64,000 nucleotides of DNA from Barnesiella sp. (GCA_045645425.1 JAZRIS010000004.1:103445-167444), one strand, 5' to 3'; shown: positions 6,723 through 22,554, counted from the first letter of the stretch. Translations and numbers: made by a program. Notes: generated from the sequence alone by a model not told the origin.

Positions 6723-6773
6723 ACACACAGAGGGCGAGCCGGAATTTTACATTCCAACTCGCCCTCTGTGTGT
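6723..6773. terminator. 16-bp perfect GC-rich hairpin between convergent genes (bidirectional terminator candidate)
   Basis: ACACACAGAGGGCGAG (6723-6738) pairs perfectly with CTCGCCCTCTGTGTGT (6758-6773). The loop holds an inner GGAAT/ATTCC stem. It sits between the Omp85 stop (6560) and the stop of the 2226-aa gene (6795). Confidence 0.6.
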
Positions 6774-6794: not shown

Positions 6795-9700
6795 TCATCG
6801 TCCTACGACAACTTTGTGACTCTCACCACCAAGTTGTACAAAGTACACACCGTGAGGCAATAGGGTTGCATTTATCACATACTCTTGCTCGTTTATCATC
6901 CTACCTCTATGGATGACACGGCCGGCAGCATCTACAAGTGTCACTTGCTCGCCCACCTCAATGCCTCGTATGTATATACGACCATCAAGGATATAGATGT
7001 TCACACCATCGGCAAGTGTCGATGAGATAGATGAGAGAGCTTTTACTCGCACAAGATTAGAGCCTACCTCGCCACAACCCGAATATATGGCTTTGACCTG
7101 ATACTCATAGTAGTTGGCAGGGTGTTTCACGTCGTCAATGAAGAATGTTTCTTGCAAAGGAGTATCATTGAGCAACTCGCTATTGCAATATACATTATAA
7201 CCTTCAAAGGCATTACGCTCCGATGTTGATGATTGTGCCAAACGTACTCCCTTGATAGCCTCATCAACAGGATTTTTCATCGCTGCGAAAGGAGCAAGAG
7301 GCTCACGTTGAGTAGCTTTTGCGATACCCTTGTCGGCATAGGCTCGCAATCCTATCGTGATATTCCAGTTGCCATCTATATCATTGGCACTGAGCGTACT
7401 CCAATTTATACCATTGCTCGAATAGAGATCGCCTTTACCCACCTTGGCAGGGCCTTCATCATAACCCAATGGTACAGAAATCTCGTTGTGCTCGATATAT
7501 ACCACAACACGCAGGGTCTTGTTGATATTGATGAGCAGAGGATGATCCAACTCTACGGTATTGAAACTATATTGCTTCAAATTGGGAACATATTGTTGTG
7601 CAATAAGGTTATCGCCCTCATATACAAGGAGGAAGAGAGCATCTGGAATTTGATTGATATAGAACTCCACTTCCGAGAGTGACAATTTTTCATAGGGTCG
7701 CAACTCATCGCTATTCCATTGTACACCGGCAAAGAAAGCACCACCGCTGGGCATACCGGCAGCATCGTGAGCATTACCATTGTGCCAACGAAGATTGACC
7801 ACATCGCCCAAGGCCGGAGCACTCCAAGCAAGGCTGTATGAATTGTCAAACGGCTCAACAAAGAGTACACCGGGTTTCTGACAACCGTTGCTGTAATCAA
7901 CCTCTATACTTATGGGTGCAGTGTAGTCGCTGACACACGACGAGAGATAGTGCGCACGCACCTGATAGCTATATGTGCCGGGAACAAGGTTGCGGTCGGT
8001 GTAACTTACATCGGTAATAGGACGGTCGTTGAGTTGTACACCATCGCGCATGATGTCATATCCATAGGCCTCGCCTATAACATGCGTATCGAGCGATATA
8101 GCATCGATATATTGCATGGGAACAGCAGCTTCGTGTCGTATGGCTACATAATCAGTACCGGCAGGTATAGTAAACTGATACTGCTTCCACACCTCGGTAG
8201 TTGTGATAGCTTGCAAGGGTATGAAGTCCTCAATATTGTTACCCTCAACCGATGTGAGAATACGCAGAGTACCATTGCCCAAGTGATCGTCGTAATTGCG
8301 AGCAACAAACGACAATATCATATCTTGTTGCGGCTTATTTACAGGAATTATCATCCAAGCATTGTCACCCTTATCGGCTTGCAATGCTTTGGTGCCATGA
8401 TACGACACCTCATTGGTTACTTGCCACATATCGTTGTAGTTTACCCAATGGGTGTGAGTATAGGCACTGCCGGCAACTCCATCTTCAAAGCTTTGATACA
8501 TGGCAGCATCAACAGCAGTAGGATCAACAAATGAGATATTGACATTGTAGCCATAAGAACTTTGCACCACCTTCACATCAATGGGAGTATCGCAATTCTC
8601 TGCATCATATATATCGACATAAGCTTTATGCGAGCGTTGCGACACCGAGCCATCGATATAGACTGTTTCTATCTCATACTCATAGGTGCCCTCTTGGCTT
8701 TCGTTTTCGGTAAAGTAACGGAAAGGCACAGGCTCGCTGTTACGTTTCTCGCCATTGCGATACACATTGTAACCAGCCAATCCATTGATGCTACCCATAT
8801 CGAAGAAGATAAATCGGCAGTTGCTGTTTTCTTGCAATGCCACAGCCAAGAGAGTAAGCCCCTCTTGAGTCTTGACAATAGACATACCGCCAGCCTTGGC
8901 TCCTGTTTCGGGAGTAATCTCTACATAGTCGGCGATATTGATTGTACGAGTGAGCATTCCTGTGGCAAAGTCATAGCAACAAATGGTGTAGGGATGCTCA
9001 TAACCTTGCTCAAATGTATAGAGCACGCCATTGTGATATGCCGAGCCGGCTGCACCCTTCAGTGTAGGTCCATCACTCAGTTTGGCACCGCGCTTGCTCA
9101 CATAGATACTTGTTTCCCAATCGCCCACTTCAAATCCGCCGCGACCCTCATCAAGTTCGGGAATATAGGCCACATGGCGCGCTATCTCGGATATTGAGAA
9201 GGTATCGGCTATACATCTGTTTTCTATGTCTATCTGATAGATAGAGCTATTGGCATCAACTGCAAAGAAGTTCTCTCCATCATAAACAAGGTTACGAATA
9301 CCCGACATATTTCTGTTTATCAAGATACTCTCGATATACTCGCCATCAAGGGTGTACTTGCATATCGTACCGTTGGTATTGTGCAACGATGTATAGATAT
9401 ACTCGCCATCCGATGCAACGCCTATTTCTCCGGCAAGATTGCCCTTGAACATATTGACATACTCGGGATAACCCTCTTCGGCCGTGGCTTGTGCCTGACT
9501 CAAATCAATGGGGAACGAGCACTCATTCTCAAGCGGGAAGTCCCAACGCACATGTATTACACTATTCAACTCAGCTTGTGCAACGACATGGCGAGGAGGC
9601 ACGGCAGTACCAAGGCTTACAACCTCGGCAATAACAGCATCGGTCATATTCGACTCGCCACCATCGGCATATACCGACGATACTTGATAGTTGTAGATAC

Positions 9701-12700
9701 CCTCTTCGCGAAGTTGCTCCTTGTAGTTGAGTTGCTCAACAAGAGCTTCGTTGCACTTCTCGCCGTTGCGATATACATTGTAACCAACAGGACACTCTTC
9801 GGCAACAGACGACGGCGATAAGTTCATCGCCATATTGAAGTTACCCTCCATACCTATATGAGTGAGAGGATACCACGACTTGCCATCGGTCGAGATAATA
9901 TTACCTTTCTTACCACGCGACTCCATGGCATCCATACCTATGGGTCTTACTCCGGCATCATGAGCAACAAGCAGTGCTATACGATAGTTGCTACCCAGCT
10001 CTATCGTTGCATCTTTGGTAAGTTTGATAGTGTTATATTCGCCATATTTGATATCGCCGGTAGCAACATTCTGCGAAATGATGCGCTTGTTGTCTTGGTA
10101 TATTTGCAACGACATCGAGAGGAAACGCTCTTGGATAAATACATCCACCGACTCTATCTTCATGTTGCGATATTCTACAAGTTCGGTGTGATCCCATTCT
10201 ATGGCAGCCCAGAAATATCCGCCATCGGCCATACCCATCGAGGTCTGATTGATACCGCTATCCCAACGTATGGTTGTGCTATCTTGCAACAAGGCATCGG
10301 GTTGCAACCAATTCAGTTCCACATCACTATTATTAGAGATGTTGAGCGACAAGTTTTGGGGAGCATAATACGGAGCACCTATCTTGATATAAATATGTGA
10401 CTCATCCGATTGTATAGATTCCTTGTCACCATACACAGCCGTAACAGTATAGGTATAATCGCCTTGTACCAACTTCGTATCGGTATAAGTTGCCTCGGCT
10501 ATGAGCTCCTCGTTTATCTTCTCTCCATTGCGGTAGATGTTGTAGCCATCGGGGTGCTTGTCACCGGCAGTCCATGTAAGTAATGCCGACGAGTTACCCT
10601 CAGCCACAACTTTGAGTTTGGTAGGTCGAGGTGTTGCTGAAGCTGCCGATACGGTATAGGACAATGTCATATTCTCCACATCCAACTCGGGTACGGTAAA
10701 TACCTTGACCGGCAATGAATAGGTTTGACCCACCACACCGTTGCGAGCATCTATGTTTATTGTTATATCTTGTGTTTCACCGCTTTTGAGCGTACCTGCT
10801 TCGGGCTCAATAGAAAGCCAATCATTGGTTTTGGCCAACTCGTAGATAAAGATGCGAGAAGGCGATTGATGAAGCATACCCATGAGCGACAAAGTACCAT
10901 CGACATAATTGGTAGTAGCCTCGATACCACATATATAATGAGGAACATCAAGAGTACCTATTTGATATCCGGGCACATCGTCTATCGTGTGCGAAATAGG
11001 TGTCACGGCGCGGGTATTGAGATTATACTGTATAATTTGTAGTTGGTCTATCTCATTGGTACCCGAAACCACCTCATTACTAAACCACAAGTATGGGCCT
11101 CCGGGGGTTACATTGTCAAATGCCGAGCCAAATACACCTATATCATCGACATTGTTGATTGTGCGGAAAGCTACTGTTATATTACCCTCACGGTCGATGC
11201 GGCCAATAGAGTTGAAGCTACCTACCCAGAACTGGTCGTTACGGGGGTCATAGCTGCAGTGGGTCATCTTCAAGGCGGGGTCTTCTTTGACAACAATCTC
11301 CTTTACAAGACGCTTGTTGCGCAAGTCAAGACAGAACATAACATTGCTGTAATCGCTACCATAGAAATATGTACCATCAAAGGCAAAATCGTACATCATG
11401 TAGTACATACCGGGAATAGAGAACTCCTCTATAAAGTTACCATCTCGGTCATACTTAAAGAAACGACCCAGATAGAATGTAGATGTTGTATAGAAAAACT
11501 CGCCATCAAAAGCAATAGAGGTTTGCAAATCGCCCGATGCATCAAAAGCATTCTGTATAGTCCAAGCATTGCGATCCGAGCCCTTTCCGGCAGGCTCGTC
11601 GGTCATGATATTCCAATTTAAGTCACCATCACCTTGGTTGGTAAATGTAATGGTGCTTGTTGCTGTTGTTTCGGCCTCCAATGAGAGTTGCAACGAGGGG
11701 GTACTTATGTTGAGTTGCGGGCGTGTAATAGTGGCCACAAACTCATTTTGTGCATCCTCTTCAATGCGCCACACTCCACTATATGTGTTGTATCCGCGCA
11801 GCACGATACTTACGGTATATTCGCCCTTCTCTATTTGAGGCAACTCCACAATACCTCGCTCATCGGCAACAGCATCAATAACTGCTCCATGATTGGATGT
11901 AAGTGTTACGGGACAATGAGCAAGGGGTGTGCCTTGCGACACGATAGAGAGTTGTGCCGAAGTCCATTCGGGGCACCACACCTTCACATCATCGACATAC
12001 CAATAGTCGATATAATAGGCATCGGCACCAAAAGCACGATAACGAATACGGAAAATATCGTTGGTGAGATATTCTTTGATATTGTACTGCTTAACCGTCC
12101 AATCAAAAGTACCATTGTCATTGTCATAGGCATCTATACGCTGCCAAGTCTGCTCATTATCGCAAGAGATTTCCAATGCCAACGAGTCGCCTACTTCATT
12201 GTTATAATTGACATGACGGAGATTAAATCGCAAATAAGTATTTTCACGATCGACAGTACGCAACTCTTTGGATACAAGCGACTGAGAATAATCTTTGAGT
12301 GAAGAATAGACATATTGTGCCGCATAATCTACCAATCCATAGGGATGATACGAGCTACTCCACTTGGTAGGATTGCCTTGCTCGTCATCGGGAGTACTCC
12401 ATCTATCGGCTTCCAATCTATTGTTATCAAATCCATCTTCAAAGGGCAAGAGGCGTATATCGGGAACTTCAACAGTCAAGACTTCCTGTTGTTTCTTCTC
12501 GCTGCCATCACTATACACGGCACTTACCACATAATCATAAAATCCATATTCAGGAACATTATCGGTATAAGCGACATCGGTAATGAGTGACTCATTGACC
12601 TTCTGATTGTTGCGATAAAGATTAAATCCTTCGAGATATACTTGTGCGGGAGCTTGCGGACGCACACGATTGGTACCTACAAATACATCATCGATGAGTA

Positions 12701-13475: not shown

Positions 13476-13493
13476 ATCGAGTTGTGTATTGTG

Positions 13494-16400
13494 TTATTTC
13501 ACTATAAGTTTTACTATTTGACTCTCATTGTCACGACTCATATTTACAATGAGAACACCTTTGTAACCATTTACATCGATGCTGTGAGTTACCCCACCAT
13601 CGAGTTGATTGTTGTAAACGACCATACCATCGGGAGTTGTACATTGTACTTGTGTAGCAGCCACAAGACCCGAGAGTATGATTTTGCCATTCTCGACATT
13701 GAGGCGTATATTGTCCTTCAAGCTATTCTCTACACTATTACTATAACTGTAGAAAGCAGGCTCTGAAGCATCAAAATAGAGAATACCATCACCGGCATAC
13801 ACTTGCACGGCGTAGGTCTTGCCGGTGGTAAACTCACCTTCGGATGTTTGATTGATAAGAATACTATTGTCATAAACAGCACCCGATGTGAGCAAGTTCC
13901 ACACATATCCATCATTGTAGGCTACCGTAAAATAGCGCACTTGCAAGTTGCGACCTCCATGACGACAGGTAAGACGCAGTTTTTGGTACACACGGCCGGT
14001 GAGATAGTCGCTCAACAAGACCTCGACACCTTCAGGGTCGTAATAATTGACATTGATGGCAGGGCCTATTTGCTCCCATATTTCACCATCTTCGGTTGCC
14101 TCTACTACCAACGTGCTTGAACCGGTAGGGCCCGAAGAGGTGAGAATAAATATAAGATCGGTAAATCCATCGGGGAATGCACGAGTTTCCAGCATACCAT
14201 CGCCTGTAAAATAGGCAGTACCGGTTGCCAAGCTCACCTTGCCCTCAACAACTTCCCAATCGGAAGGCGGGAAGAACATGGCTGTATTAAAGACAGTATC
14301 GGTAACTTCATAAAATTCGAGGTGATAGCGGGCGGCATTTTCCACAGGAGTCCACTCTACTTCGAGAGCGGTGTTGTCTTCTACCAATCCGAAACGTGTA
14401 AACTGCGGAGTTCCCAACTTGCTTGCCAAGTATATTTGCCACAACCACAGACTGCTTTGCAACTTCTCGGATGTACATACAAGAGCAATATATACCTCTT
14501 GTCCTGCATAGCTCGACAAATCTACCTCTTCAGGAACTTGGTATCCATGATTGTCGGCAAAGGAGAATTGCTTAACCAAGTGGAAATCTTCCAATTCGCG
14601 AGAGTGTGTAGAAACATACACATCAAGTTTTTCTACGGCAGCTTGCTCTACAATTCCTCTCACAAAATAGAGGTGACCATTCTCGGGCACAAGCATACGA
14701 GTAGATACTACCCAATCATCGGCATTGTTCCAATAGTCAAATTGATACAACAAGCCTTGTGTAGCATCGTCAAACACCCATGTAGTACCATCGCCGTTAT
14801 TATCTATAATTTTCCAACAATCGGGCTCTCCATCGGTCCACGACATAAAGTCGGCTATATAGGGAGCTTCGGCTACGGCACACTCGGTTCTCACCGGTAT
14901 GGCGGCACCATATACAACACTATTATCTTCAAGACGCATAAACGCACGCACATAGTAGAGCGCACCGGGGTTGAGGCCGGTAATAGTATAGCTTATGGCA
15001 CTATTGACAGGGATAACCGCTTGAGGCGATGTAGCCACATTGGGGTCTTGATGAGTATCCCAGCAGAAACCCATCTCGACAATAGGTGCATTGCTTTTTT
15101 CTATTGTGGCACAAGCCTCCAACGATGTATCGCGAATGTTGCGAGGCTTCTCGGTGCGAATAACGGGGAGGTCGGCGATACCACCTTTTACTTGGAAATA
15201 GATTATTCCATTCTCTTCACGAATATTGGTGATGGGAGTGCGAGTAGGCTCGCCCGCCCAGTTGATTGCATTGGGAGTAGAGTTATCGGTAAATTGTGTA
15301 TTGCCCGAACGACCGGGATAGGTATCGCCGTTGCGGGTATTACCATCATCTATACCATCGGCAGGCTTGATATACATGCAACGATGTTGGCTGTTGTTGT
15401 TGGGGCCGTTAAACGACCAATATTTTTCTACCATCTCATCGGTATAGTCATAGTGATATATGAGCAAGCCGTGAGCCGGTATATAGGCATCCCATCCCTC
15501 TTTTTGACGATTTTCAAGAACAAACCACTCATGACCTGTACCTTCGGCACGATGAGGTTGTGCATTGATATAGCAGGCCTCGTTCTCTGCCAACGATTTG
15601 AGGCTTATATCGGCGGCTTCGTTCAACTCTGTGGGCTCACACCAACCCATCTGTGAGCGTTCAAAAGCCATAAGATAGGGAGGCGTGCGACTCTCGTTGT
15701 TGTAGCTACCCGATGCAAACATAGAGTAGTCGCCGGGGTCAAGGCCGTAACCATCGAGATATTCGTCGGTATCGTACATATCTTTCAGTCCGAGAACGTG
15801 ACCAAATTCGTGTGCAAATGTACCTATACCATCCATTTTCTTGCCACTTGCTCCCACAAACTCGGCAGAGCAACCATAGGCATCTATAACAATACCGTCT
15901 ATTGTCAATGAGAACTCATCGAGAGTCCAACTATGAGGCCACATATCATCGCCATTGCCTGTACTTGCCTCGCTATATCCGGCATAGACAATATTGACAT
16001 TATCCATGTAACCATCGTTATCATTGTCAAAGATAGAGAAGTCCAAATCGGGATTTTGTTGTTTGGCAATATTACAAGCATCGACAATCATCGCACGAGG
16101 ATTGACATCCTCGCCGGTTTCCTCCGAATTGCCGGCATAATATACTTGCGGATAGTTGAGTGTATAGGGGCCCAATACGGTAAATTGAGGTACAAATTGA
16201 CCCATCGAGTTATCTCTATAATAGTCTTTGACACTACCTGTTCCACCATTTACGCTATAACCGGTTTCGTTGAGCCACGCATCAAAGTCATGATTGGTAA
16301 ATGTAAAGGGCACATCACTAAATCCTACCAATATAACAAGATATTGGCTCTCGGCAACGCCCTCTTTTGCAGCATATTGCTTGGTATTATTATGTTTGTG

Positions 16401-16793
16401 TGCCATGGGCGATGTCACTCGGGGCGACTTGCGAGTAATGGCACGTTCACGCACCATCTCGGCATGATATTTCTTGGCAGGAGCAAGAGCCGACAACAAC
16501 TTCACCTCTTGTGTATTGCGTTCCGTAACATTAGAAGCTACTTGCGGTGTGAGGCGACGACTCTCAAAGTCGTAGTACTTGAAGTAGCCATCGACATCTC
16601 TTCTTACAAGATAACCATCGAGAGTTGTGGTATAATGAAAATTCTCATCACCATGCATCCTTATGGTCAGTTGAGAACCATCGGGATGTGTAATTGTAAT
16701 CGGATTGGGGTTGGCCATGATAGCATATGCGACCGGCATAACACTTAATGATAGTATGACCCCAACAATAAATTTACGGAAGATAGTTTTCAT
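13494..16793 (-). CDS. M6-family (immune inhibitor A-like) zinc metalloprotease with Fn3 and choice-of-anchor-J-like domains and a T9SS C-terminal sorting domain
   Basis: Signal peptide MKTIFRKFIVGVILSLSVMPVAYA. HEFGH zinc motif in FAHEFGHVLGLKDMYD, with HEFGH encoded at 15798-15812 and verified by hand. MWPHSWTL and the N-terminal ITHPDGSQLTIRMHGDENFHY propeptide pattern are typical of M6 peptidases. The downstream GFCWDTHQDPN Fn3-like and CWKIIDNNGDGTTWVFD modules follow. CTD ...GVLIVNMSRDNESQIVKLIVK. Confidence 0.85.
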   Translation of the reverse strand: MKTIFRKFIVGVILSLSVMPVAYAIMANPNPITITHPDGSQLTIRMHGDENFHYTTTLDGYLVRRDVDGYFKYYDFESRRLTPQVASNVTERNTQEVKLLSALAPAKKYHAEMVRERAITRKSPRVTSPMAHKHNNTKQYAAKEGVAESQYLVILVGFSDVPFTFTNHDFDAWLNETGYSVNGGTGSVKDYYRDNSMGQFVPQFTVLGPYTLNYPQVYYAGNSEETGEDVNPRAMIVDACNIAKQQNPDLDFSIFDNDNDGYMDNVNIVYAGYSEASTGNGDDMWPHSWTLDEFSLTIDGIVIDAYGCSAEFVGASGKKMDGIGTFAHEFGHVLGLKDMYDTDEYLDGYGLDPGDYSMFASGSYNNESRTPPYLMAFERSQMGWCEPTELNEAADISLKSLAENEACYINAQPHRAEGTGHEWFVLENRQKEGWDAYIPAHGLLIYHYDYTDEMVEKYWSFNGPNNNSQHRCMYIKPADGIDDGNTRNGDTYPGRSGNTQFTDNSTPNAINWAGEPTRTPITNIREENGIIYFQVKGGIADLPVIRTEKPRNIRDTSLEACATIEKSNAPIVEMGFCWDTHQDPNVATSPQAVIPVNSAISYTITGLNPGALYYVRAFMRLEDNSVVYGAAIPVRTECAVAEAPYIADFMSWTDGEPDCWKIIDNNGDGTTWVFDDATQGLLYQFDYWNNADDWVVSTRMLVPENGHLYFVRGIVEQAAVEKLDVYVSTHSRELEDFHLVKQFSFADNHGYQVPEEVDLSSYAGQEVYIALVCTSEKLQSSLWLWQIYLASKLGTPQFTRFGLVEDNTALEVEWTPVENAARYHLEFYEVTDTVFNTAMFFPPSDWEVVEGKVSLATGTAYFTGDGMLETRAFPDGFTDLIFILTSSGPTGSSTLVVEATEDGEIWEQIGPAINVNYYDPEGVEVLLSDYLTGRVYQKLRLTCRHGGRNLQVRYFTVAYNDGYVWNLLTSGAVYDNSILINQTSEGEFTTGKTYAVQVYAGDGILYFDASEPAFYSYSNSVENSLKDNIRLNVENGKIILSGLVAATQVQCTTPDGMVVYNNQLDGGVTHSIDVNGYKGVLIVNMSRDNESQIVKLIVK

Positions 16794-16846
16794 GGATATG
16801 GATTAAGGAGAATATTTTTTTAGAAAAACATACGAACATAGATAAA

Positions 16847-16880
16847 GAGTGCGATACGAGATATTACTCGTATCGCACTC
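16847..16880 (-). terminator. 14-bp perfect hairpin between the 1063-aa gene and the M6 protease gene (terminator/attenuator candidate)
   Basis: GAGTGCGATACGAG (16847-16860) pairs with CTCGTATCGCACTC (16867-16880) around a 6-nt loop. It lies 12 nt downstream of the stop at 16892 on the minus strand. Confidence 0.5.
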
Positions 16881-16891
16881 ACAAACAACAA

Positions 16892-19800
16892 TTATCTGAT
16901 AGCGACTTTTGTTACATTATCGCCCACTTTTACAATGTACAAGCCTTGTTCGAGGGCAAATGTTACTTGGTCATATACAGCTTGTGCAGCAACAATCTTA
17001 CCGGCAACATCGCATATAACAACATCGGTGCGAGTATTGTTGGCTGTTACTACAATATTATTACCCATCACTTTCACTTGACTCTCTTGCTCGATATTGT
17101 CGAGTCCTGTATAGGTGCCACTTACTACAACAACAAATTCGTTGTAGGTTGCATCGAGTTTCAAGTAATAATAACCCGATGTGAGCACATTGTACACGAG
17201 AGAATATCCATTGCTATCGTAATCGTATGACGACATAGCCAAGTAGCTATCGGTATCGCAACCGTCATACATAGTCATACTGAAATAATTGCTCGATGAT
17301 ACCGACTTAATAGAGAACTCTCCGGGTTCGAGTTGGATACCATACCACACAGGATTGTTGCGACTTGCCACAATGGGAAGTGTAAGTTCTCCGGGAACAA
17401 TTTCGATAGGCAATGAGCAAGACTCTCCGGGTTGAAGTTCGGCAAGTTCTATTGTCAATTTCTTACCGGCTTGAGCTGTGAGTGTCAATACATTGATATA
17501 CAATACATCGCCGGCATTAACAACAAAGCTGCCTTTGAATACACTGCCTTCCGATGAGGTCTGTATGATTTCTGTACCATATTCATTACAGTCTGTCAAA
17601 ACTTTTACGCTCGAATAACGTGTCGAGTAGGTACTCTCGTCGTAGATAGACTCATAAGCAATATCGGAGCTGATGATAACCTTACCATCTTGCTCTACTT
17701 GATACATATACCAATACTTTCCGGCATACTCGGGCAAGTTTGTATCGCCTGCGGTTACCTCAATAGCATTCTCGCATGACTCACCTTCTTGATATTCTTC
17801 TTCGCTGAGGAAGAATGTGGTTTCGTATTCGATATTATTGAATTTGATGATGCAGGTTTCGCCTTCCATAAGCTCGCACTTGTTGATATTGGCAATTTTG
17901 GTAGCAGGATAAGTACCCGACCAATATTCACAACCGCGCAAGAATGTAACATCAATAGTTACATCGGTGTCGATAACCAACCATCCGGTTTGTGTAGCTG
18001 TATAGGTGTAGTACAACTCCGATGCTTCAGCCAATTCATTCTCGCCTTCAACAGCCTCAATAGCACTGTCACAAGTGGCACCGGCAGTTATCTCTTCGTA
18101 CGAAACAGTGAAGGGGAATGAGTTATATCCCTCGAAGCACGACCATTGTATAATGTAATTCATGCCACCCTCTACTTGAGCCTTGACATAGTTGCTTCCA
18201 CTTGCAAGAGCAGTATATGTGTTATACTCTTCGTATATTTTTACACCTGTTTCATAATTGGTAATATTGGCACCTTGTGCATCTACAATCAAGAAGCGAC
18301 TATCACCCTCGGGCACGGTCACTTTATAGTAATATGTACCATTATATACGGGGGTAACAACCTCAACATCGCTCTCTATCACAATAGGATCGTAGGTTGT
18401 ATCACCCGCTTTCTCGGGCTCACATGCTATTTCAAACTGCTCTTCTTGTGCAGTAGCTTCGGTTTTTTCGATATTGATAAGATATGTTTGATTGGCATAT
18501 ACAGAGGTACGCAATGCAAAATATCCGTCTATCGAGCTATTGGCACTGTATGAGGAACAGCTCGACCATACATAAATACTGCCACCGGCAAGACTGCATT
18601 CTGATGTTATTATCATAAATCCATCCATCGAAGGAGTGTATTTATACCAATACGAACCGGCCTCCTTGGGCAACATATTTACATCGGCTCCGTCAAAGGG
18701 CATATCGCACGAAAGTCCCTTAACAGGGTGTGTAAGCTTGGCCGAAACAAACATCGGGCCATAGGCTTGTACAAGGAATATATAGGTATTACCGGCCTTA
18801 ACCTCATGTTTACCCACATAAGAGCCATTGGCATATTCAACCGATACGACAGTGGTTGATGTTGCGTCACAACCTACTTGTGCGGTGCACGAAGAAACAC
18901 TGTTTGTAAAATATATTTCCAACAAGCCATCCTCGACACATGTATATGAGAGGTAGGTACCGGCAGTAGAGTAACCGTCACTGTGAACAGGAACAAAAGC
19001 CTCTTCTTCGCCTATCTCCACAGCATCATCACAGGTAGCACCGGCATTGGTGTCGGCATCGGTCAAGGTAATGTCAAACGATATATTTGTAATGTTATAG
19101 CCACCCACTTCCAATATTATTGTTTGTGCAGGCTTTACAGGATATGACATTGAAGAGTAATCACTTGCCATGATACCCGATATATAGGCACCATTGGCAT
19201 CCGTCATACTGCTACGTACATTCTCGTTTGAAGATGCAAATTTGAGCATCTTGCCTTGCTCTGCAGGTGCTGTATAGGTATAATACACAATATTTTGGCC
19301 ACTTGAGGCATTTTCAAAAGTATATTTATTGCGACCTTCTTGCAATTCGAGTGCTGTTTGGGGTGTTGCACCGGGCGAAGGATGAGTAACTACTGCCGAC
19401 ATAAGAATGGGAGAAGAACTCAACTCCATACTGAAGATATATGACTCACCGGCGGCAACCGACATTTGAGCAACATACAATCCGTCTTTATAAGTAGCTT
19501 GGATAATTGCAGGAGCGTTGTCATCGCAGTTGCGCATCACCTTTACCTCGTAAAGCTGGCCGACAATTCGCAACTCCAACACACCTTCTTCCTCACTTGT
19601 ATAAGTGGCAAAAGTGGGGTTGTAGCTATATGTTACCATATCATAATAAGTGGGGATAAAAGTATTCTCCTCACTCAACACTATGGCATCGGCACAAGTT
19701 GCACCGCCATCCACGTTTGCATCGTCGATAGATATTCCAAATGTGGCAGATGTACCGCTCCATGTAGAAATCTTGACATAGACAGTTTCACCGGGATTTA

Positions 19801-20083
19801 CCGGATAGGCCATTCCGTTATCCAAATATACACCATTGATGCGAGTAGAGCCATCGGTAGTTACCTCACACGACACAGAATAATCAACGCGCGTATAGGT
19901 TATCAACTTTCCCTGATTTTCGGGTGCTGTATAAGTATAATATACAACTACACCATTGGCACTTTCGTCGGTGTAAGTAAGATTGTCACCCTCTTCAAGA
20001 GGCAGGGCTGTTTCGATACTTGATTGGGAGTATCCACTCAAGAAGGCACATAATAGTGCAGTCAATAGCAAAACTCTTTTCAT
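16892..20083 (-). CDS. 1063-aa secreted protein built from tandem ~100-120 aa beta-sandwich-like modules, with a T9SS C-terminal sorting domain
   Basis: Signal peptide MKRVLLLTALLCAFLSGYSQ. Seven modules begin with G-x-(S/T)-C-x-x-(A/P)-(I/V)-like starts: GATCADAIVL, GATCDDAVEI, GLSCDMPFDG, AGDTTYDPIVI, GATCDSAIEA, GESCENAIEV, GESCSLPIEI. There are also two copies of a second module type. CTD ...EQGLYIVKVGDNVTKVAIR. Confidence 0.8.
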   Translation of the reverse strand: MKRVLLLTALLCAFLSGYSQSSIETALPLEEGDNLTYTDESANGVVVYYTYTAPENQGKLITYTRVDYSVSCEVTTDGSTRINGVYLDNGMAYPVNPGETVYVKISTWSGTSATFGISIDDANVDGGATCADAIVLSEENTFIPTYYDMVTYSYNPTFATYTSEEEGVLELRIVGQLYEVKVMRNCDDNAPAIIQATYKDGLYVAQMSVAAGESYIFSMELSSSPILMSAVVTHPSPGATPQTALELQEGRNKYTFENASSGQNIVYYTYTAPAEQGKMLKFASSNENVRSSMTDANGAYISGIMASDYSSMSYPVKPAQTIILEVGGYNITNISFDITLTDADTNAGATCDDAVEIGEEEAFVPVHSDGYSTAGTYLSYTCVEDGLLEIYFTNSVSSCTAQVGCDATSTTVVSVEYANGSYVGKHEVKAGNTYIFLVQAYGPMFVSAKLTHPVKGLSCDMPFDGADVNMLPKEAGSYWYKYTPSMDGFMIITSECSLAGGSIYVWSSCSSYSANSSIDGYFALRTSVYANQTYLINIEKTEATAQEEQFEIACEPEKAGDTTYDPIVIESDVEVVTPVYNGTYYYKVTVPEGDSRFLIVDAQGANITNYETGVKIYEEYNTYTALASGSNYVKAQVEGGMNYIIQWSCFEGYNSFPFTVSYEEITAGATCDSAIEAVEGENELAEASELYYTYTATQTGWLVIDTDVTIDVTFLRGCEYWSGTYPATKIANINKCELMEGETCIIKFNNIEYETTFFLSEEEYQEGESCENAIEVTAGDTNLPEYAGKYWYMYQVEQDGKVIISSDIAYESIYDESTYSTRYSSVKVLTDCNEYGTEIIQTSSEGSVFKGSFVVNAGDVLYINVLTLTAQAGKKLTIELAELQPGESCSLPIEIVPGELTLPIVASRNNPVWYGIQLEPGEFSIKSVSSSNYFSMTMYDGCDTDSYLAMSSYDYDSNGYSLVYNVLTSGYYYLKLDATYNEFVVVVSGTYTGLDNIEQESQVKVMGNNIVVTANNTRTDVVICDVAGKIVAAQAVYDQVTFALEQGLYIVKVGDNVTKVAIR

Positions 20084-20236
20084 AATGATACTGATTTATT
20101 ATTGGTTATTATTGTATTCTTCTACACAGGTTGCATCATTCGAGGTTTTAGCCTCTATTCACTTTGCAAGTTTACATATTATATATTTAAAAAGCAACAT
20201 GACATAGGGGATAAAAGGGGGATATGGATATAAAAT

Positions 20237-20267
20237 AATATGCGTTATAAGGCTTATAACGCATATT
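20237..20267 (-). terminator. hairpin downstream of the regulator gene
   Basis: AATATGCGTTATAAG and CTTATAACGCATATT form a near-perfect palindrome 34 nt past the stop at 20301. On the minus strand it is followed by T-rich sequence (TATTTTATATCC). Confidence 0.45.
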
Positions 20268-20300
20268 GTATAAAAAACACATCCCTTTTTGAGGAAAATT

Positions 20301-21920
20301 CTATGCAAGTGTGCTTAAATAGGAGAAGAGAGCTTTTGAATTTTCAAATCCCATTTTTCGAGCAAGCTGCTGACGTTTTTTCTTGCAATATTCGGGTGTT
20401 ATATTCAACAAAGATGCAATCTCTTTGGTGCTGAGATTGATATATATGAGCGATAGAAATCGTATTTCATTGGCATTGAGTTCGGGATGTTTCTCTCGCA
20501 AGGCCGCAATGAAAGCATCATTGCGTTGCTCGAAATAGGTAGAAAAATCTTGCCATGCCTCATTCTCGTCAATGGCTCGTTGCAGGCGAGTAATGGTGTG
20601 TTTGAGAAGCGTATCGTTGCTATCTCGCAGATATTGCGATTTGGACAACTCCCCAACGATATTAGTAACAATATCGTTGCGATTGGCCACAATCATGGCC
20701 TTGGTCATGAGTTCTTTGTCGCGCAACTCTATCTCGTGCTTGTAACGCTCCTCTTCGAGCAACGCTTGGGTGCGCTGTTCTTCGAGCTGTTTCTGCAAGA
20801 GTTGTTGCTGATGCTTCTCTCTCTCGATATTGAGATGCGATATTTCTTTCTCTTGTCGGTTTTTTACTATCTGGTTGATAAGAGCCCACGCCAATATAAT
20901 AGATGCCAATATACCCATTCCCAGCACAATATAACTTGCCTGTGCACGCAAACGATACTCTTCTATCTCATTTTCGCGACGCAAGAGCTCTATCTGCGTA
21001 TTGGCATTCTCAAAGTTTCGCTCGGCCTGTATGTTTCTTATCGAATCGGATACTTGCAAGACCGAGTCTTGATACAGATAAGCCATCCTATAACGCTGTG
21101 TGGTATAATATATATCGGCAAGAGTCTCGTAAAGTTTTTTGCGCTCTTCGATACTTATTGCATGCGATAGAGCTTGTCGGCTATATTTGATGGCTGCATT
21201 GTAGTCTTTTACATCCACCATTGTCTGCACAAGAACAATCAGAGCCGCCGCCTCCACAGCCTCTTGACTTGTGGACATGGCTTTATTGAGAACTTGCAAT
21301 GCCTTCTGATAGGCCTCTTCATATTTCCCATTCTTACACAAATAATTGGCTTTTATAATCTGTAGGTCGAGGCTCTCTTTGGGCGAATTGACAAACATTT
21401 TTTCGGCAATTTCTATATACTCTGCTGTTTGTTCATACTTATTGAGGCTCAATGATATATTGGCAATATTCATGGCACAACCGCCTATAAAGAGAGAGTC
21501 GCCACTATCCAAGGCCGACTTATAGGCCAGCATCGACTGTTCAAGTGCCTCCTCATACTTGCGATCGAGTATATACACACCCGCAATGTTATTTATAACG
21601 CTCATCTCAAAGCGTTTATCAAGCTTTTCGGCTGCAATCTGATAGGCCTTCGAGAGATTGTTGAGCGAGGTGGGATAGTCGGTCAATTCGGCATAATTGA
21701 TACCTATATTGGTATATATCCAAAATTGATATTCATAAGCATTCTTCTGCCTTGCTATCTCCTCGGCTTGCGACAAGAGCTCCAGAGAACTGAAGTAATC
21801 TTTCTCGTCGGATGCTTGTATGGCCGCACGCAACAAGCTGTCACACGACTCTATATTCTGTGCCGCAAGAATTGACGGGCACAGCAAAAGCACAATGTAT
21901 AGAATGACTCTTAATTTCAT
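20301..21920 (-). CDS. membrane-anchored one-component regulator: signal/anchor, TPR repeats, TM helix, coiled coil, LuxR-type HTH
   Basis: ORF 20301..21962. The likely start is the internal Met (MKLRVILYIVLLLCPSILAAQ, ATG at 21920), which avoids overlap with rnhB. TPR-like repeats span aa ~40-300. The TM segment is ASYIVLGMGILASIILAWALINQIV (aa 342-366 in ORF numbering), followed by a charged coiled coil. The C-terminal LNANEIRFLSLIYINLSTKEIASLLNITPEYCKKKRQQLARKMGF is a LuxR/GerE-like HTH. Confidence 0.75.
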   Translation of the reverse strand: MKLRVILYIVLLLCPSILAAQNIESCDSLLRAAIQASDEKDYFSSLELLSQAEEIARQKNAYEYQFWIYTNIGINYAELTDYPTSLNNLSKAYQIAAEKLDKRFEMSVINNIAGVYILDRKYEEALEQSMLAYKSALDSGDSLFIGGCAMNIANISLSLNKYEQTAEYIEIAEKMFVNSPKESLDLQIIKANYLCKNGKYEEAYQKALQVLNKAMSTSQEAVEAAALIVLVQTMVDVKDYNAAIKYSRQALSHAISIEERKKLYETLADIYYTTQRYRMAYLYQDSVLQVSDSIRNIQAERNFENANTQIELLRRENEIEEYRLRAQASYIVLGMGILASIILAWALINQIVKNRQEKEISHLNIEREKHQQQLLQKQLEEQRTQALLEEERYKHEIELRDKELMTKAMIVANRNDIVTNIVGELSKSQYLRDSNDTLLKHTITRLQRAIDENEAWQDFSTYFEQRNDAFIAALREKHPELNANEIRFLSLIYINLSTKEIASLLNITPEYCKKKRQQLARKMGFENSKALFSYLSTLA

Positions 21921-21954: not shown

Positions 21955-22554
21955 TTATTCAAAAAGCTTGAGTTGCGGATCGGTCAGGCGGAAAGATTGT
22001 CGATGAAATGGGGTGATGCCATATCGAACAATAGCATCGCGGTGTTGCTCGGTGGGATAGCCCTTGTTTTTATCCCATCCATATTGCGGATATTGCTCAT
22101 GGAGTTGCATCATATAGTCGTCGCGATAGGTCTTGGCCAAAACAGATGCTGCGGCAATAGAGAGAAATTTACCATCACCCTTTACCACACAGGTATGTGG
22201 TATATCCTTGTAGGGTTTAAACCTATTGCCATCTATAAGCAAATGCTGGGGAACAACCGATAACTGCTCTACGGCTCGTTGCATAGCCAATATCGACGCA
22301 TTGAGAATATTTATCTTATCTATCTCTTGAGGCGACACTGTGGCTACTGCCCACGCTATGGCCTCTTGTTCGATAATAGGCCGCAACATATAACGTTGCT
22401 TTTCGGTAAGCTGTTTTGAGTCGTTGAGCAACGGATGTCTATAATCTTGCGGCAGGATAACAGCGGCCGCAAATACTGCGCCCGACAAGCATCCGCGTCC
22501 GGCTTCATCACATCCGGCCTCTATACGGCCATTCTGCATACACGACAAGAGCAT
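21955..22554 (-). CDS. rnhB: ribonuclease HII
   Basis: 199 aa. Contains [22 protein letters not shown] (DEAGRG catalytic motif) and the ...[10 protein letters not shown]... pattern of RNase HII. Confidence 0.9.

What the first reader, a model, noticed from the sequence alone, without database searches (positions are those of the whole stretch)
6795..21920. Regulator plus three giant T9SS cargo genes arranged as one co-directional 15-kb block
On the minus strand, a TPR/TM/LuxR-HTH regulator (21920->20301) is followed by genes of 1063, 1099 and 2226 aa. Each has an N-terminal signal peptide and a C-terminal ~70-80 aa beta-sandwich tail of the T9SS type-A sorting class (...LYIVKVGDNVTKVAIR, ...LIVNMSRDNESQIVKLIVK, ...VYFVQLGGESHKVVVGR). 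Only the middle gene has a catalytic motif (M6 HEFGH). The flanking two are built of binding-type modules. The last two genes are 18 nt apart, so they are likely co-translated or co-transcribed, whereas a 14-bp hairpin separates gene 1 from gene 2. This looks like a dedicated surface protease-plus-adhesin module with its own sensor, and I cannot name a characterised equivalent. The M6 family includes InhA-type enzymes that degrade host defence proteins, so a host- or matrix-targeting role is a reasonable hypothesis.
Basis: partly seen in the sequence, partly recalled or inferred. Interest (0 to 1): 0.6.

Follow-up and report, generated by a model that had tools for sequence, protein, structure and literature searches.

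The report
T9SS protease-adhesin operon with dedicated regulator
Three giant secreted surface proteins (a zinc protease flanked by two binding proteins) form a gene block conserved in dozens of gut Prevotella-type bacteria. In this genome the block sits behind a membrane-spanning sensor-regulator whose probable DNA binding site I could identify by comparison with relatives.

Summary
In detail: four co-directional minus-strand genes, the 18-nt gap, the 14-bp hairpin, signal peptides, and HEFGH only in the middle gene.

**CTD tails.** The three C-terminal tails are homologous type-A T9SS CTDs. They pass the curated cut-off only when scanned alone (G1, G3). G2's tail never passes; its support is profile-profile comparison and hits by its orthologues.

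**The cargo trio.** G1-G2-G3 keep the same order and strand in about 70 Prevotella/Segatella-lineage species. A strong hairpin follows G1 in 79% of loci. The G2-G3 gap has a median of 19 nt. Only 3 of 47 G1-G2 gaps contain a promoter -7 box. The most likely reading is one operon with an internal attenuating hairpin.

**The regulator.** It accompanies the trio only in the window's sub-lineage. Its family is consistently next to T9SS cargo: 8 of 8 informative distant homologues.

**New result.** A tandem repeat, ATCCCC-N5-ATCCCC, lies 32-33 nt upstream of the G1 -7 box.
- It occurs in 11 of 11 regulator-bearing loci and 0 of 36 regulator-less loci.
- A distant regulator clade has TGTCAC repeats instead, and its HTH recognition helix differs accordingly.
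- Two predictions made from the helix sequence were both met.

No characterised equivalent turned up in the literature searches. The protease substrate and the sensed signal remain unknown.

The parts
20301..21920 (-). REG: membrane-spanning one-component regulator. Signal/anchor segment 1-24, periplasmic TPR domain about 25-328, TM helix 329-352, cytoplasmic coiled-coil-like linker, C-terminal LuxR-type HTH about 480-535.
   Evidence: ORF and translation. TPR_12 scores 44.7 bits and GerE 16.6 bits, below cut-off. 20 of 34 family members hit GerE. Hydropathy profile. Weak similarity to the FimS periplasmic region and to the BT3442 family. The TPR profile resembles Rap/NprR receptors.
20281..20288 (-). 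Inverted extra half-site AAAGGGAT (reverse complement of ATCCCTTT), 65 nt upstream of the tandem repeat.
   Evidence: Found at the same -65/-66 offset in the window, L001, L003, L006, L007 and both cassettes of L071.
20237..20267 (-). Terminator-like hairpin after REG (14 pairs, 3-nt loop, ATTTTAT tail).
   Evidence: sequence.
20207..20223 (-). Candidate REG operator: tandem direct repeat ATCCCC-CTTTT-ATCCCC, half-sites 11 bp apart.
   Evidence: It is the only match in the 64-kb window within 3 mismatches. It is present upstream of the cargo gene in every class-A REG locus and in no REG-less locus: 11 of 11 against 0 of 36, Fisher p = 6e-11. It is also found upstream of LRR-type cargo in L079 and L105.
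20167..20174 (-). -7-like promoter box TAAACTTG (Bacteroidota consensus TAnnTTTG), 32 nt downstream of the repeat and about 85 nt upstream of the G1 ATG.
   Evidence: A box lies at a fixed 32-33 nt offset in essentially all class-A loci. A TAnnTTTG box is present within 250 nt upstream of G1 in 36 of 47 loci. That this element is the promoter -7 box rests on established knowledge of Bacteroides promoters.
16892..20083 (-). G1: 1063-aa secreted protein. Signal peptide, about nine CUB/collagen-binding-domain-like beta-sandwich modules (residues 24-238 duplicated as 242-456), CTD about 1000-1063 (coordinates 16895-17086).
   Evidence: AlphaFold2 model with pLDDT 84.2. Foldseek matches cubilin CUB, ColG s3a-s3b, neuropilin and HA70. 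Orthologues hit GBD_T9SS_assoc and DUF6383. The tail alone scores 25.8 on TIGR04183. The family profile hits gingipain CTD structures. NCBI names an orthologue 'T9SS type A sorting domain-containing protein'.
16847..16880 (-). 14-bp perfect hairpin after G1, read as a partial terminator or attenuator.
   Evidence: A strong hairpin follows the G1 stop in 79% of 48 orthologous loci, with median -22 kcal/mol against -9.6 for shuffled sequence.
13494..16793 (-). G2: 1099-aa M6 (InhA-type) zinc metalloprotease. Signal peptide, N-terminal region, catalytic domain residues 153-447 (HEFGH at 15798-15812), fn3-like, choice-of-anchor J/MAM-like and further beta-sandwich domains, divergent CTD 1030-1099 (13497-13706).
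   Evidence: TIGR03296 scores 199 bits and choice_anch_J 44.5. Peptidase_M6 hit. The family profile hits InhA 4yu5 at E 4e-17. H328, E329, H332, G335 and D338 are invariant. Model pLDDT 78.5. CTD evidence.
6795..13475 (-). G3: 2226-aa mosaic adhesin-like protein. Signal peptide, 3 choice-of-anchor J domains, about 6 fn3/RGI-lyase-type domains, 2 lectin-like domains, a CarboxypepD_reg-like domain, 2 copies of an unassigned domain of about 230 aa, CTD about 2150-2226 (6798-7028).
   Evidence: The tail alone scores 25.5 on TIGR04183.
6726..6770 (-). Terminator-like hairpin after G3 (13-bp GC-rich stem CACAGAGGGCGAG/CTCGCCCTCTGTG).
   Evidence: Sequence. A strong hairpin follows G3 in 85% of 65 loci.

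Best explanation
**The cargo operon.** G1-G2-G3 is a conserved operon for three proteins exported by Sec and then by the type IX secretion system. The proteins probably work together on the cell surface.
- G1 is a string of about nine beta-sandwich binding modules.
- G2 is a catalytically intact M6 (InhA/PrtV-type) zinc protease with its own binding domains.
- G3 is a 2226-aa mosaic adhesin-like protein.

**Transcription (inferred).** Transcription starts at one promoter upstream of G1. The conserved hairpin after G1 lets only part of the transcripts continue, so G1 would be made in excess. G2 and G3, 18 nt apart, are expressed together.

**The regulator.** In this lineage the promoter is controlled by REG, a one-component regulator that spans the inner membrane. 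Its periplasmic TPR domain would sense a signal, perhaps a peptide or protein. Its cytoplasmic LuxR-type HTH would bind the tandem ATCCCC-N5-ATCCCC repeat, which lies at roughly -61 to -45, plus an inverted half-site 65 nt further upstream. Binding would activate transcription.

**Shown versus inferred.**
- Shown: gene content, domain families, synteny, the hairpin pattern, and the motif's co-occurrence, spacing and covariation with the recognition helix.
- Inferred: DNA binding by REG, activation rather than repression, attenuation at the hairpin, formation of a surface complex, the protease substrate and the sensed signal.
For: **Trio synteny.** The trio has the same order and strand in about 70 of 78 genome loci; truncated M6 relatives (L075-L077) lack G1 and G3.

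**CTDs.**

**Active M6 protease.**

**Operon structure.**
- A -7 box lies upstream of G1 in 36 of 47 loci, but in only 3 of 47 G1-G2 gaps.
- A strong hairpin follows G1 in 79% of loci.
- The G2-G3 gap has a median of 19 nt and is at most 30 nt in 40 of 61 loci.

**REG topology and HTH.**

**REG family next to T9SS cargo.** 8 of 8 informative distant homologues are adjacent to T9SS cargo. The cargo types include LRR, sortilin/BNR and adhesin-like proteins, one with a type-B CTD.

**The motif.**
- It is the only match in the window within 3 mismatches.
- It occurs in 11 of 11 REG-bearing loci and 0 of 36 REG-less loci.
- It sits at a fixed 32-33 nt from the -7 box, and the inverted half-site sits at -65.
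- It follows REG to a different cargo type (L079, L105) and to divergently oriented loci (L039, L080), always on the cargo strand.

**Covariation with the recognition helix.** Clade B regulators carry the helix ExCRKRKERI and have TGTCAC-type repeats at 11 or 22 bp spacing. Clade A regulators carry EYCKKKxQQ and have ATCCCC repeats. Two predictions made from the helix sequence (P0287 as class A, P0290 as class B) were both met.
Against: - The window's own GerE score (16.6) and all whole-protein CTD scores are below the curated cut-offs. The G2 tail fails even when scanned alone.
- Most species carry the trio without REG, so REG is not required for the trio's function.
- The loci are phylogenetically related, so the Fisher p-value overstates independence.
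- The hairpin has a T-rich tail and could be a full terminator.
- L071 carries a second promoter cassette in front of G2. This fits G2-G3 needing their own input at least there.
- The window's -7 box is imperfect (TAAACTTG).
- No T9SS machinery genes lie in the window.
- There are no expression, binding or secretion data.
Confidence: 0.6

Rival explanations
1. REG controls only G1. The hairpin is a full terminator, and G2-G3 form a separate transcription unit under different control.
For: The hairpin is scored terminator-like, with 14 pairs and a T-rich tail. It is conserved in position in 79% of loci. L071 has a complete second REG-type cassette in the G1-G2 gap.
Against: Only 3 of 47 G1-G2 gaps contain a TAnnTTTG box, against 36 of 47 upstream of G1. 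Most gaps are only 70-100 nt and are largely filled by the hairpin. Many of the hairpins lack a U-tract.
Confidence: 0.25
2. The regulator is merely a neighbour. The ATCCCC repeat is bound by another factor, or is an alternative-sigma promoter element, and REG is a TPR scaffold or anti-sigma-like protein rather than a DNA-binding regulator.
For: The window GerE hit is below cut-off. Five of 34 family members also hit sigma-70 region 4 models. BT_3442-type TPR proteins have been discussed as interaction partners (PMC2954219). The trio exists without REG in most species.
Against: The motif occurs only where REG is present. It follows REG to unrelated cargo genes and to inverted arrangements. The half-site sequence covaries with the HTH recognition helix, and two blind predictions were met. 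A standard -7 box lies at a fixed distance downstream, so the repeat is not itself the core promoter. REG has no sigma region 2.
Confidence: 0.12
3. The three proteins are independent T9SS cargo that are co-located but have no joint function. The block is a conserved 'cargo island' rather than a protease-adhesin machine.
For: There is no evidence of physical interaction. T9SS cargo genes often cluster. P. intermedia has many separate fn3/choice-of-anchor J putative adhesins (PMC11969387).
Against: Order, strand and tight G2-G3 spacing are kept across M6 identities from 43% to 81%, while the flanking genes change completely. M6 relatives that lack the C-terminal accessory half also lack G1 and G3 (L075-L077).
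Confidence: 0.2
4. The C-terminal tails (DUF6383-like) are not T9SS signals, and the proteins are exported or anchored by another route.
For: Whole-protein scores are below cut-off and the G2 tail fails. T9SS genes are not visible in the window.
Against: The G1 and G3 tails pass TIGR04183 when scanned alone. The three tails are mutually homologous. The G1 family profile matches solved gingipain CTDs. An orthologue is named a T9SS type A sorting protein by NCBI. The tails sit at the C-terminus, signal peptides are present, and the models show a beta-sandwich.
Confidence: 0.07

Closest known systems
Porphyromonas gingivalis gingipain-adhesin surface complexes (RgpA/Kgp/HagA)
   Same: T9SS-exported protease plus large adhesin modules of the cleaved-adhesin/choice-of-anchor J type. 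CTD-dependent sorting. The G1 family profile matches gingipain CTD structures.
   Different: The protease here is an M6 metalloprotease, not a C25 cysteine protease. Protease and adhesins are three separate genes rather than polyproteins. No complex has been shown.
Immune inhibitor A (InhA, Bacillus) and PrtV (Vibrio cholerae), MEROPS family M6
   Same: The catalytic domain passes TIGR03296. The HEFGHxxGxxD zinc motif is present. The family profile hits InhA structure 4yu5 at E 4e-17.
   Different: G2 has about 650 extra residues of fn3, MAM/choice-of-anchor J-like and other beta-sandwich domains plus a T9SS CTD. Its substrates are unknown. It is not the NCBIfam 'T9SS-dependent M6-like inactivated metalloprotease' (27.6 bits against a cut-off of 600).
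Membrane-bound one-component regulators (ToxR/TcpP/CadC type) and MalT/LAL-type TPR+LuxR regulators
   Same: A single polypeptide joins a sensor domain to a DNA-binding domain, and in the ToxR type it spans the membrane. As in MalT/LAL, a TPR-like sensor precedes a C-terminal LuxR-type HTH; distant REG relatives hit TPR_MalT. Tandem direct-repeat operators lie next to the core promoter.
   Different: The topology is reversed relative to ToxR: the sensor is N-terminal and periplasmic, and the HTH is C-terminal and cytoplasmic. Unlike MalT, a TM helix separates the sensor from the HTH and there is no ATPase domain. The family is systematically paired with T9SS cargo genes.
BT3442 family (Bacteroides thetaiotaomicron) and the periplasmic TPR sensor of FimS (P. 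gingivalis)
   Same: Weak homology over residues 170-534 (E 8e-13) and 28-260 (E 6e-7). BT_3442 likewise heads a cluster of surface or secreted proteins (PMC2954219).
   Different: Scores are far below the equivalog cut-offs (48 against 940; 28 against 600). FimS is a histidine kinase. BT_3442 is uncharacterised.
PorX/PorY/SigP regulation of the T9SS
   Same: Regulatory input into type IX secretion in Bacteroidota.
   Different: PorXY-SigP controls genes for the secretion machinery (established knowledge). REG is a local, cargo-specific regulator of a different architecture.
ColG collagen-binding domains, CUB domains and Pfam GBD_T9SS_assoc
   Same: The G1 modules are jelly-roll beta-sandwiches in tandem. 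Foldseek matches ColG s3a-s3b at E 4e-6 and cubilin CUB at E 2e-7. Orthologues hit GBD_T9SS_assoc.
   Different: TM-scores are low (0.2-0.35 per target). The ligand is unknown. The window protein itself scores only 16 bits on GBD_T9SS_assoc.

Membership tests
T9SS type A CTD cargo (TIGR04183 / PF18962) | C-terminal domain scores above the curated cut-off of the CTD model | tested here: inconclusive
   Whole-protein scans: G1 18.7 and G3 19.2 against a cut-off of 23; G2 no hit. Tails scanned alone: G1 25.8 and G3 25.5 pass; G2 15.5 fails. The G2 tail is homologous to the other two by hhalign at 98% and 91.5% probability. Orthologue tails hit DUF6383 in 13 of 35 cases and TIGR04183 in 6 of 35.
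T9SS type A CTD cargo (TIGR04183 / PF18962) | N-terminal Sec signal peptide, with the CTD at the extreme C-terminus | tested here: met
   Hydrophobic N-termini are present in all three proteins and their orthologues, and G1 orthologues show the typical A-Q cleavage context. The tail matches end at the last residues.
T9SS type A CTD cargo (TIGR04183 / PF18962) | Beta-sandwich CTD fold | tested here: met
   The AlphaFold2 models show seven-strand C-terminal units at G1 1003-1062 and G2 1030-1098, with block pLDDT of about 63-88. The G1 family profile matches solved gingipain CTDs 7pq4, 5ag9 and 5hfs at E 0.002-0.02. G3 was not modelled.
T9SS type A CTD cargo (TIGR04183 / PF18962) | The genome encodes T9SS machinery, and secretion depends on it | not testable with these tools
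   No por/spr genes lie in the 64-kb window. Presence of a T9SS in Prevotella/Segatella is established knowledge but was not verified for this genome.
MEROPS M6 / TIGR03296 metalloprotease | Catalytic domain above the curated cut-off | tested here: met
   TIGR03296 scores 199 bits against 110.8. PF05547 scores 52.5 against 22.
MEROPS M6 / TIGR03296 metalloprotease | HEXXHXXGXXD zinc-binding and catalytic motif intact | tested here: met
   HEFGHVLGLKD is at residues 328-338. H328, E329, H332, G335 and D338 are invariant in 48 homologues.
MEROPS M6 / TIGR03296 metalloprotease | Proteolytic activity | not testable with these tools
   Requires enzyme assays.
T9SS-dependent M6-like inactivated metalloprotease (NF052323) | Equivalog score of at least 600 | tested here: not met
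   27.6 bits. In addition, the active site here is intact.
LuxR/GerE-type HTH transcription regulators (PF00196) | C-terminal HTH above the gathering score | tested here: inconclusive
   The window protein scores 16.6 bits against 23.5. 20 of 34 family members hit GerE at E no higher than 0.01, best 3e-5.
LuxR/GerE-type HTH transcription regulators (PF00196) | Binds a specific operator near the regulated promoter | tested here: inconclusive
   A candidate operator was identified by co-occurrence, fixed spacing and helix/half-site covariation. Binding itself was not tested.
BT3442 family (NF053779) | Equivalog score of at least 940 | tested here: not met
   48 bits. REG is a related but distinct family.
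Choice-of-anchor J domain (NF038128) | Domain score of at least 30 | tested here: met
   G3 scores 86.9 bits over 3 stretches. G2 scores 44.5 bits.

The most novel reading that the evidence does not exclude
REG would represent a previously undescribed family of inner-membrane-spanning one-component activators dedicated to individual T9SS cargo genes or operons. The architecture is a periplasmic TPR sensor, one TM helix and a cytoplasmic LuxR-type HTH.

The family would have a readable operator code: tandem 6-bp half-sites phased 11 bp apart at about -61 to -45. ATCCCC pairs with recognition helix EYCKKKxQQ, and TGTCAC pairs with ExCRKRKERI.

Because the sensor resembles peptide-binding TPR receptors (Rap/NprR, FimS), it may sense periplasmic or surface-derived peptides. 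Candidates include products of the G2 protease or unsecreted cargo, which would give feed-forward or secretion-coupled control of surface proteolysis.
Probability: 0.4. Interest if true: 0.75.

Novelty: new variant of a known kind. Interest (0 to 1): 0.6.

Why it matters
Prevotella and Segatella are dominant gut bacteria, yet the biology of their surface proteins is almost unexplored.

- **The trio.** A three-gene protease-plus-binding-protein operon conserved in about 70 species is a strong candidate for a core surface function, such as harvesting proteins or glycoproteins, interacting with host matrix or mucus, or degrading defence peptides.
- **The regulator.** How individual T9SS cargo genes are regulated is largely unknown beyond the PorXY-SigP control of the machinery. 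A cargo-linked transmembrane regulator family with a predicted operator and a specificity code gives a directly testable entry point: EMSA, reporter fusions and helix swaps.
- **Genome-wide use.** The operator also offers a way to predict regulons from sequence.

Tried and rejected
1. **Exact look-up of G2 in the contig index.** Nothing was on record. The context was obtained through homologues instead.
2. **Self-BLAST of whole proteins.** It returned only the identity hit. A fragment-against-whole comparison replaced it.
3. **Sigma-70 promoter scan.** It gave 46 sites against 40.1 expected, which is not informative. No exact TAnnTTTG lies in the window's REG-G1 or G1-G2 gaps. The -7-like box was recognised only by its conserved offset in the relatives.
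4. **Metagenome scan for the exact 19-mer AYATCCCCTTTTTATCCCC.** It returned 18 loci, none with a REG homologue (one ORF weakly matched the tail profile). I judged them chance matches, so this gives no information on the regulon.
5. **A possible lipobox (VAGC) in the G3 signal peptide.** Rejected, because the Cys is not conserved in orthologues.
6. **Foldseek of the whole multi-domain models.** It gave only fold-class matches with low TM-scores, such as CUB, CBD, MAM, fn3 and reelin repeats. No specific function can be drawn from them.
7. **Sub-fragment Pfam scans.**
   - The two unassigned G3 domains of about 230 aa stayed unassigned, apart from a weak OLF hit at E 0.013 on the second copy.
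   - G2 residues 790-1020 gave no hit.
   - The G1 fragments gave only sub-threshold hits.
8. **Literature searches.** Searches for M6 plus T9SS plus Prevotella, for BT3442, and for TPR/LuxR regulators of T9SS cargo found no characterised equivalent.
9. **Four-gene synteny as a general rule.** Rejected.

Full report
**1. The observation**

The four minus-strand ORFs are exactly as described:
- REG, 20301-21920, 539 aa. The ATG start is supported by orthologues of 539-544 aa. An upstream TTG at 21962 would overlap rnhB.
- G1, 16892-20083, 1063 aa.
- G2, 13494-16793, 1099 aa.
- G3, 6795-13475, 2226 aa.

The intergenic gaps are 217, 98 and 18 nt. The 14-bp perfect hairpin after G1 (16880-16847) is real and has a T-rich tail. 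A second hairpin follows REG (20267-20237), and a third follows G3 (6726-6770). HExxH occurs only in G2.

The block is embedded in housekeeping genes. rnhB, a DUF4831 gene and an NAD(P)HX repair gene lie upstream. tamL converges downstream. Further along are the ribosomal/secY/rpoA cluster and fusA. There is no compositional anomaly.

**2. The cargo proteins**

*G2.* It passes the M6 model TIGR03296 (199 bits against a cut-off of 110.8). It carries HEFGHVLGLKD, and all catalytic and zinc-binding residues are invariant in 48 homologues. Its family profile hits the InhA structure 4yu5 at E 4e-17. It also contains a choice-of-anchor J domain, and its model matches fn3- and reelin/MAM-like sandwiches.

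*G1.* It has no Pfam hit above threshold. Its AlphaFold2 model (pLDDT 84) is a chain of about nine beta-sandwich modules plus a C-terminal seven-strand unit. Foldseek matches tandem CUB domains, the ColG collagen-binding pair s3a-s3b, neuropilin and botulinum HA70, all with low TM-scores. Orthologues hit Pfam GBD_T9SS_assoc and DUF6383. Residues 24-238 are duplicated as 242-456. This explains why the window protein is about 215 aa longer than most orthologues, which are about 845 aa.

*G3.* It is a mosaic:
- three choice-of-anchor J domains;
- about six fn3/RGI-lyase-type domains;
- two lectin-like domains;
- a CarboxypepD_reg-like domain;
- two copies of an unassigned domain of about 230 aa.

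**3. The CTD tails**

This is the weakest part of the original observation if taken literally.
- In whole-protein scans none of the tails reaches a curated cut-off.
- Scanned alone, the G1 and G3 tails pass TIGR04183 (25.8 and 25.5 against 23), and G1 passes DUF6383. G2 does not pass (15.5).
- Profile-profile comparison of orthologue tails shows that the three are homologous: G2 against G3 98.1% (E 1e-13), G1 against G3 97.9%, G2 against G1 91.5%.
- 13 of 35 G2-orthologue tails hit DUF6383 and 6 of 35 hit TIGR04183.
- The G1 family profile finds the solved gingipain CTDs.
- NCBI names a G1 orthologue a T9SS type A sorting protein.

Given these results, the signal peptides and the modelled folds, I accept all three as T9SS cargo. 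T9SS machinery could not be checked in this genome.

**4. Synteny**

A scan of one genome per species with an M6 alignment gave 78 loci. tblastn with the window proteins shows G1-G2-G3 in the same order and orientation in essentially every locus long enough to tell, about 70 in all. These cover Segatella copri, Prevotella spp., Xylanibacter rarus, Marseilla massiliensis, an Alloprevotella-labelled MAG and many ruminant, chicken and human MAGs. M6 identity ranges from 43% to 81%.

The closest relatives are 'Bacteroidaceae bacterium' MAGs from ruminant recta, at about 80% identity.

M6 relatives that lack the accessory half (L075-L077) lack G1 and G3. Upstream neighbours vary freely: SecDF, an amino-acid kinase, SusC/D on the other strand, and a C10 peptidase. 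The trio is therefore a self-contained conserved module.

**5. Transcript architecture across loci**

- A strong hairpin lies within 70 nt of the G1 stop in 79% of 48 loci, with median -22 kcal/mol against -9.6 for shuffled sequence. The hairpin sequences are unrelated between lineages.
- The G2-G3 gap has a median of 19 nt and is at most 30 nt in 40 of 61 loci, usually without a hairpin.
- 85% of loci have a hairpin after G3.
- A consensus Bacteroidota -7 box (TAnnTTTG) lies within 250 nt upstream of G1 in 36 of 47 loci, but in only 3 of 47 G1-G2 gaps.

The simplest reading is one promoter before G1 and an internal attenuating or stabilising hairpin that sets G1 above G2 and G3. This is inference. 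The rival reading, in which the hairpin is a full terminator, is kept at about 0.25.

**6. The regulator**

REG has an N-terminal signal/anchor segment (1-24), a TPR region, one TM helix (329-352), a charged coiled-coil-like linker and a C-terminal LuxR-type HTH. The window's GerE score is sub-threshold, but 20 of 34 family members hit GerE. The TPR part resembles the periplasmic region of FimS, the BT3442 family and Rap/NprR-type receptors.

The family is small, about 55 full-length relatives, and carries no functional annotation.

REG flanks the trio in 12 of the 78 genome loci: 11 directly upstream and co-directional, and 1 divergent. Two further REG-anchored loci, L080 and L106, also carry it next to G1. 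The four-gene block is therefore lineage-specific.

Ten distant REG homologues (28-42% identity) were looked up:
- Seven sit directly upstream of a gene that encodes a T9SS CTD protein of some other kind: LRR, sortilin/BNR, MAM/cleaved-adhesin, or a type-B CTD adhesin.
- One is divergent from a G1-M6-G3 trio.
- Two are on contigs too short to show the downstream gene's C-terminus. These are L105, where the gene starts as an LRR protein, and L107.

That makes 8 of 8 informative cases.

**7. The candidate operator (new)**

Aligning the REG-G1 gaps revealed ATCCCC-N5-ATCCCC (window 20223-20207) in every REG-bearing locus, although the rest of the gap cannot be aligned.
- It is the only match in the 64-kb window within 3 mismatches.
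- Across the 78 M6-anchored loci (1.5 Mb), the strict pattern occurs 12 times, all upstream of the cargo gene in REG-bearing loci. That is 11 of 11 against 0 of 36 REG-less loci, Fisher p = 6e-11. The loci are related, so this p-value is optimistic.
- It stays on the cargo strand when REG is inverted (L039, L080).
- It accompanies REG to LRR-type cargo (L079, L105).
- It is duplicated, together with its upstream inverted half-site, in front of G2 in L071.
- A -7 box follows at a fixed 32-33 nt, and an inverted half-site AAAGGGAT lies at -65/-66 in seven cassettes.

With the Bacteroides promoter geometry (-7 and -33 elements, established knowledge), the repeat sits at about -61 to -45. That is the position of an activator site.

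**8. Covariation of helix and half-site**

The distant clade (L081-L085, L104, L107) has TGTCAC/TGTCG direct repeats at 11 or 22 bp spacing instead. Its HTH recognition helix reads ExCRKRKERI rather than EYCKKK(K/R)QQ.

I predicted the motif class for two regulators not yet examined. P0287 was predicted class A and P0290 class B. Both predictions were met, and the gene downstream of P0287 is a G1 orthologue.

This covariation is the main reason to assign the repeat to REG rather than to another factor.

**9. Mechanism proposed**

REG is a ToxR-like protein in principle but with reversed topology. It would sense a periplasmic signal through its TPR domain and activate the G1 promoter from the tandem repeat. 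The three T9SS cargo proteins are then exported and, by analogy with gingipain-adhesin complexes, may cooperate at the surface, with G1 and G3 binding a substrate and G2 cleaving it. The substrate, the signal, the sign of regulation and any complex formation are all unproven.

**10. Comparison, novelty and scores**

Each part belongs to a known kind: T9SS cargo, an M6 protease, choice-of-anchor J/fn3 adhesin-like proteins (also noted in P. intermedia, PMC11969387), and a membrane-bound one-component regulator. M6 peptidases in gut Bacteroidales have been noted before (PMC4936053).

As far as the searches show, three things appear new:
- the conserved three-gene operon;
- the systematic pairing of this regulator family with T9SS cargo;
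- the operator and its specificity code.

I rate this a new variant of a known kind, with interest 0.6.

Noticed in passing
L071:9628-10000 (G1-G2 gap): A complete second copy of the REG-type promoter cassette is inserted between G1 and G2 in this relative. It contains AAAAGGGATGTG, then the ATCCCCTTTTTATCCCC repeat with its start 65 nt downstream, then TAATATTG 33 nt after the repeat. The cassette therefore behaves as a portable unit.
   Followed up: partly
L052:4950-7445, and similarly L064, L065, L068: In some Prevotella-type genomes a C10 cysteine peptidase with a Spi-type inhibitor propeptide lies directly upstream of G1 on the same strand, preceded by a 698-aa ORF with no family hit (scanned in L052 only; same-sized ORFs in the others). 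This may be an extended protease operon.
   Followed up: no
L001:3123-4835, and similarly L003, L006, L007, L072: A 570-aa ORF with no Pfam hit lies between rnhB and REG in the closest relatives. It is absent from the window, where rnhB abuts REG, as in L071.
   Followed up: no
window 18716-20014 (G1 residues 24-456): There is a tandem duplication of a two-module unit (24-238 is similar to 242-456, 29-35% identity). The window protein and a few others (L001, L003, P0124-P0127) are about 1060 aa, most orthologues are about 845 aa, and L011 and L073 have 1383 aa. The binding protein evolves by gain and loss of modules.
   Followed up: partly
window 10806-11588 and 8781-9488 (G3 residues about 630-890 and 1330-1565): These are two copies of an unassigned domain of about 230 aa (24-27% identity to each other). 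The only lead is a weak olfactomedin-like hit at E 0.013, which might indicate a beta-propeller.
   Followed up: partly
L038, L067, L078 (record titles): Prevotella-type trio loci sit in bins labelled Akkermansia muciniphila, Oscillospiraceae and Acutalibacteraceae. 'Barnesiella' and 'Alistipes' labels also occur. These are probably mis-binned or mislabelled contigs in public MAGs.
   Followed up: no
L074:20245-21471 (-): A second, partial REG paralogue lies downstream of G3 on the opposite strand in this distant locus. It is cut off by the end of the locus.
   Followed up: no
window, whole: TAnnTTTG occurs 76 times against 48.8 +/- 6.6 expected. This fits Bacteroidota-type promoters and supports using this box as the promoter marker.
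   Followed up: partly
window 4236-6560 (+): The gene converging on G3 is a TamL-type translocation and assembly module lipoprotein (808 bits). It is an outer-membrane biogenesis factor lying next to an operon for giant surface proteins. tblastn did not detect it in the 10-kb flanks of any related locus, so the adjacency is probably coincidental.
   Followed up: partly
window 16794-16804: The sequence AATCCATATCC lies immediately before the G2 ATG. It resembles ATCCATATCCCC, which precedes and overlaps the first operator half-site upstream of G1. Its significance is unknown.
   Followed up: no
B. thetaiotaomicron BT_3442 (literature, PMC2954219): The related BT3442 family protein heads a ten-gene cluster of MACPF and other surface lipoproteins. 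This hints that TPR-TM-HTH proteins may generally head surface-protein clusters in Bacteroidales.
   Followed up: no
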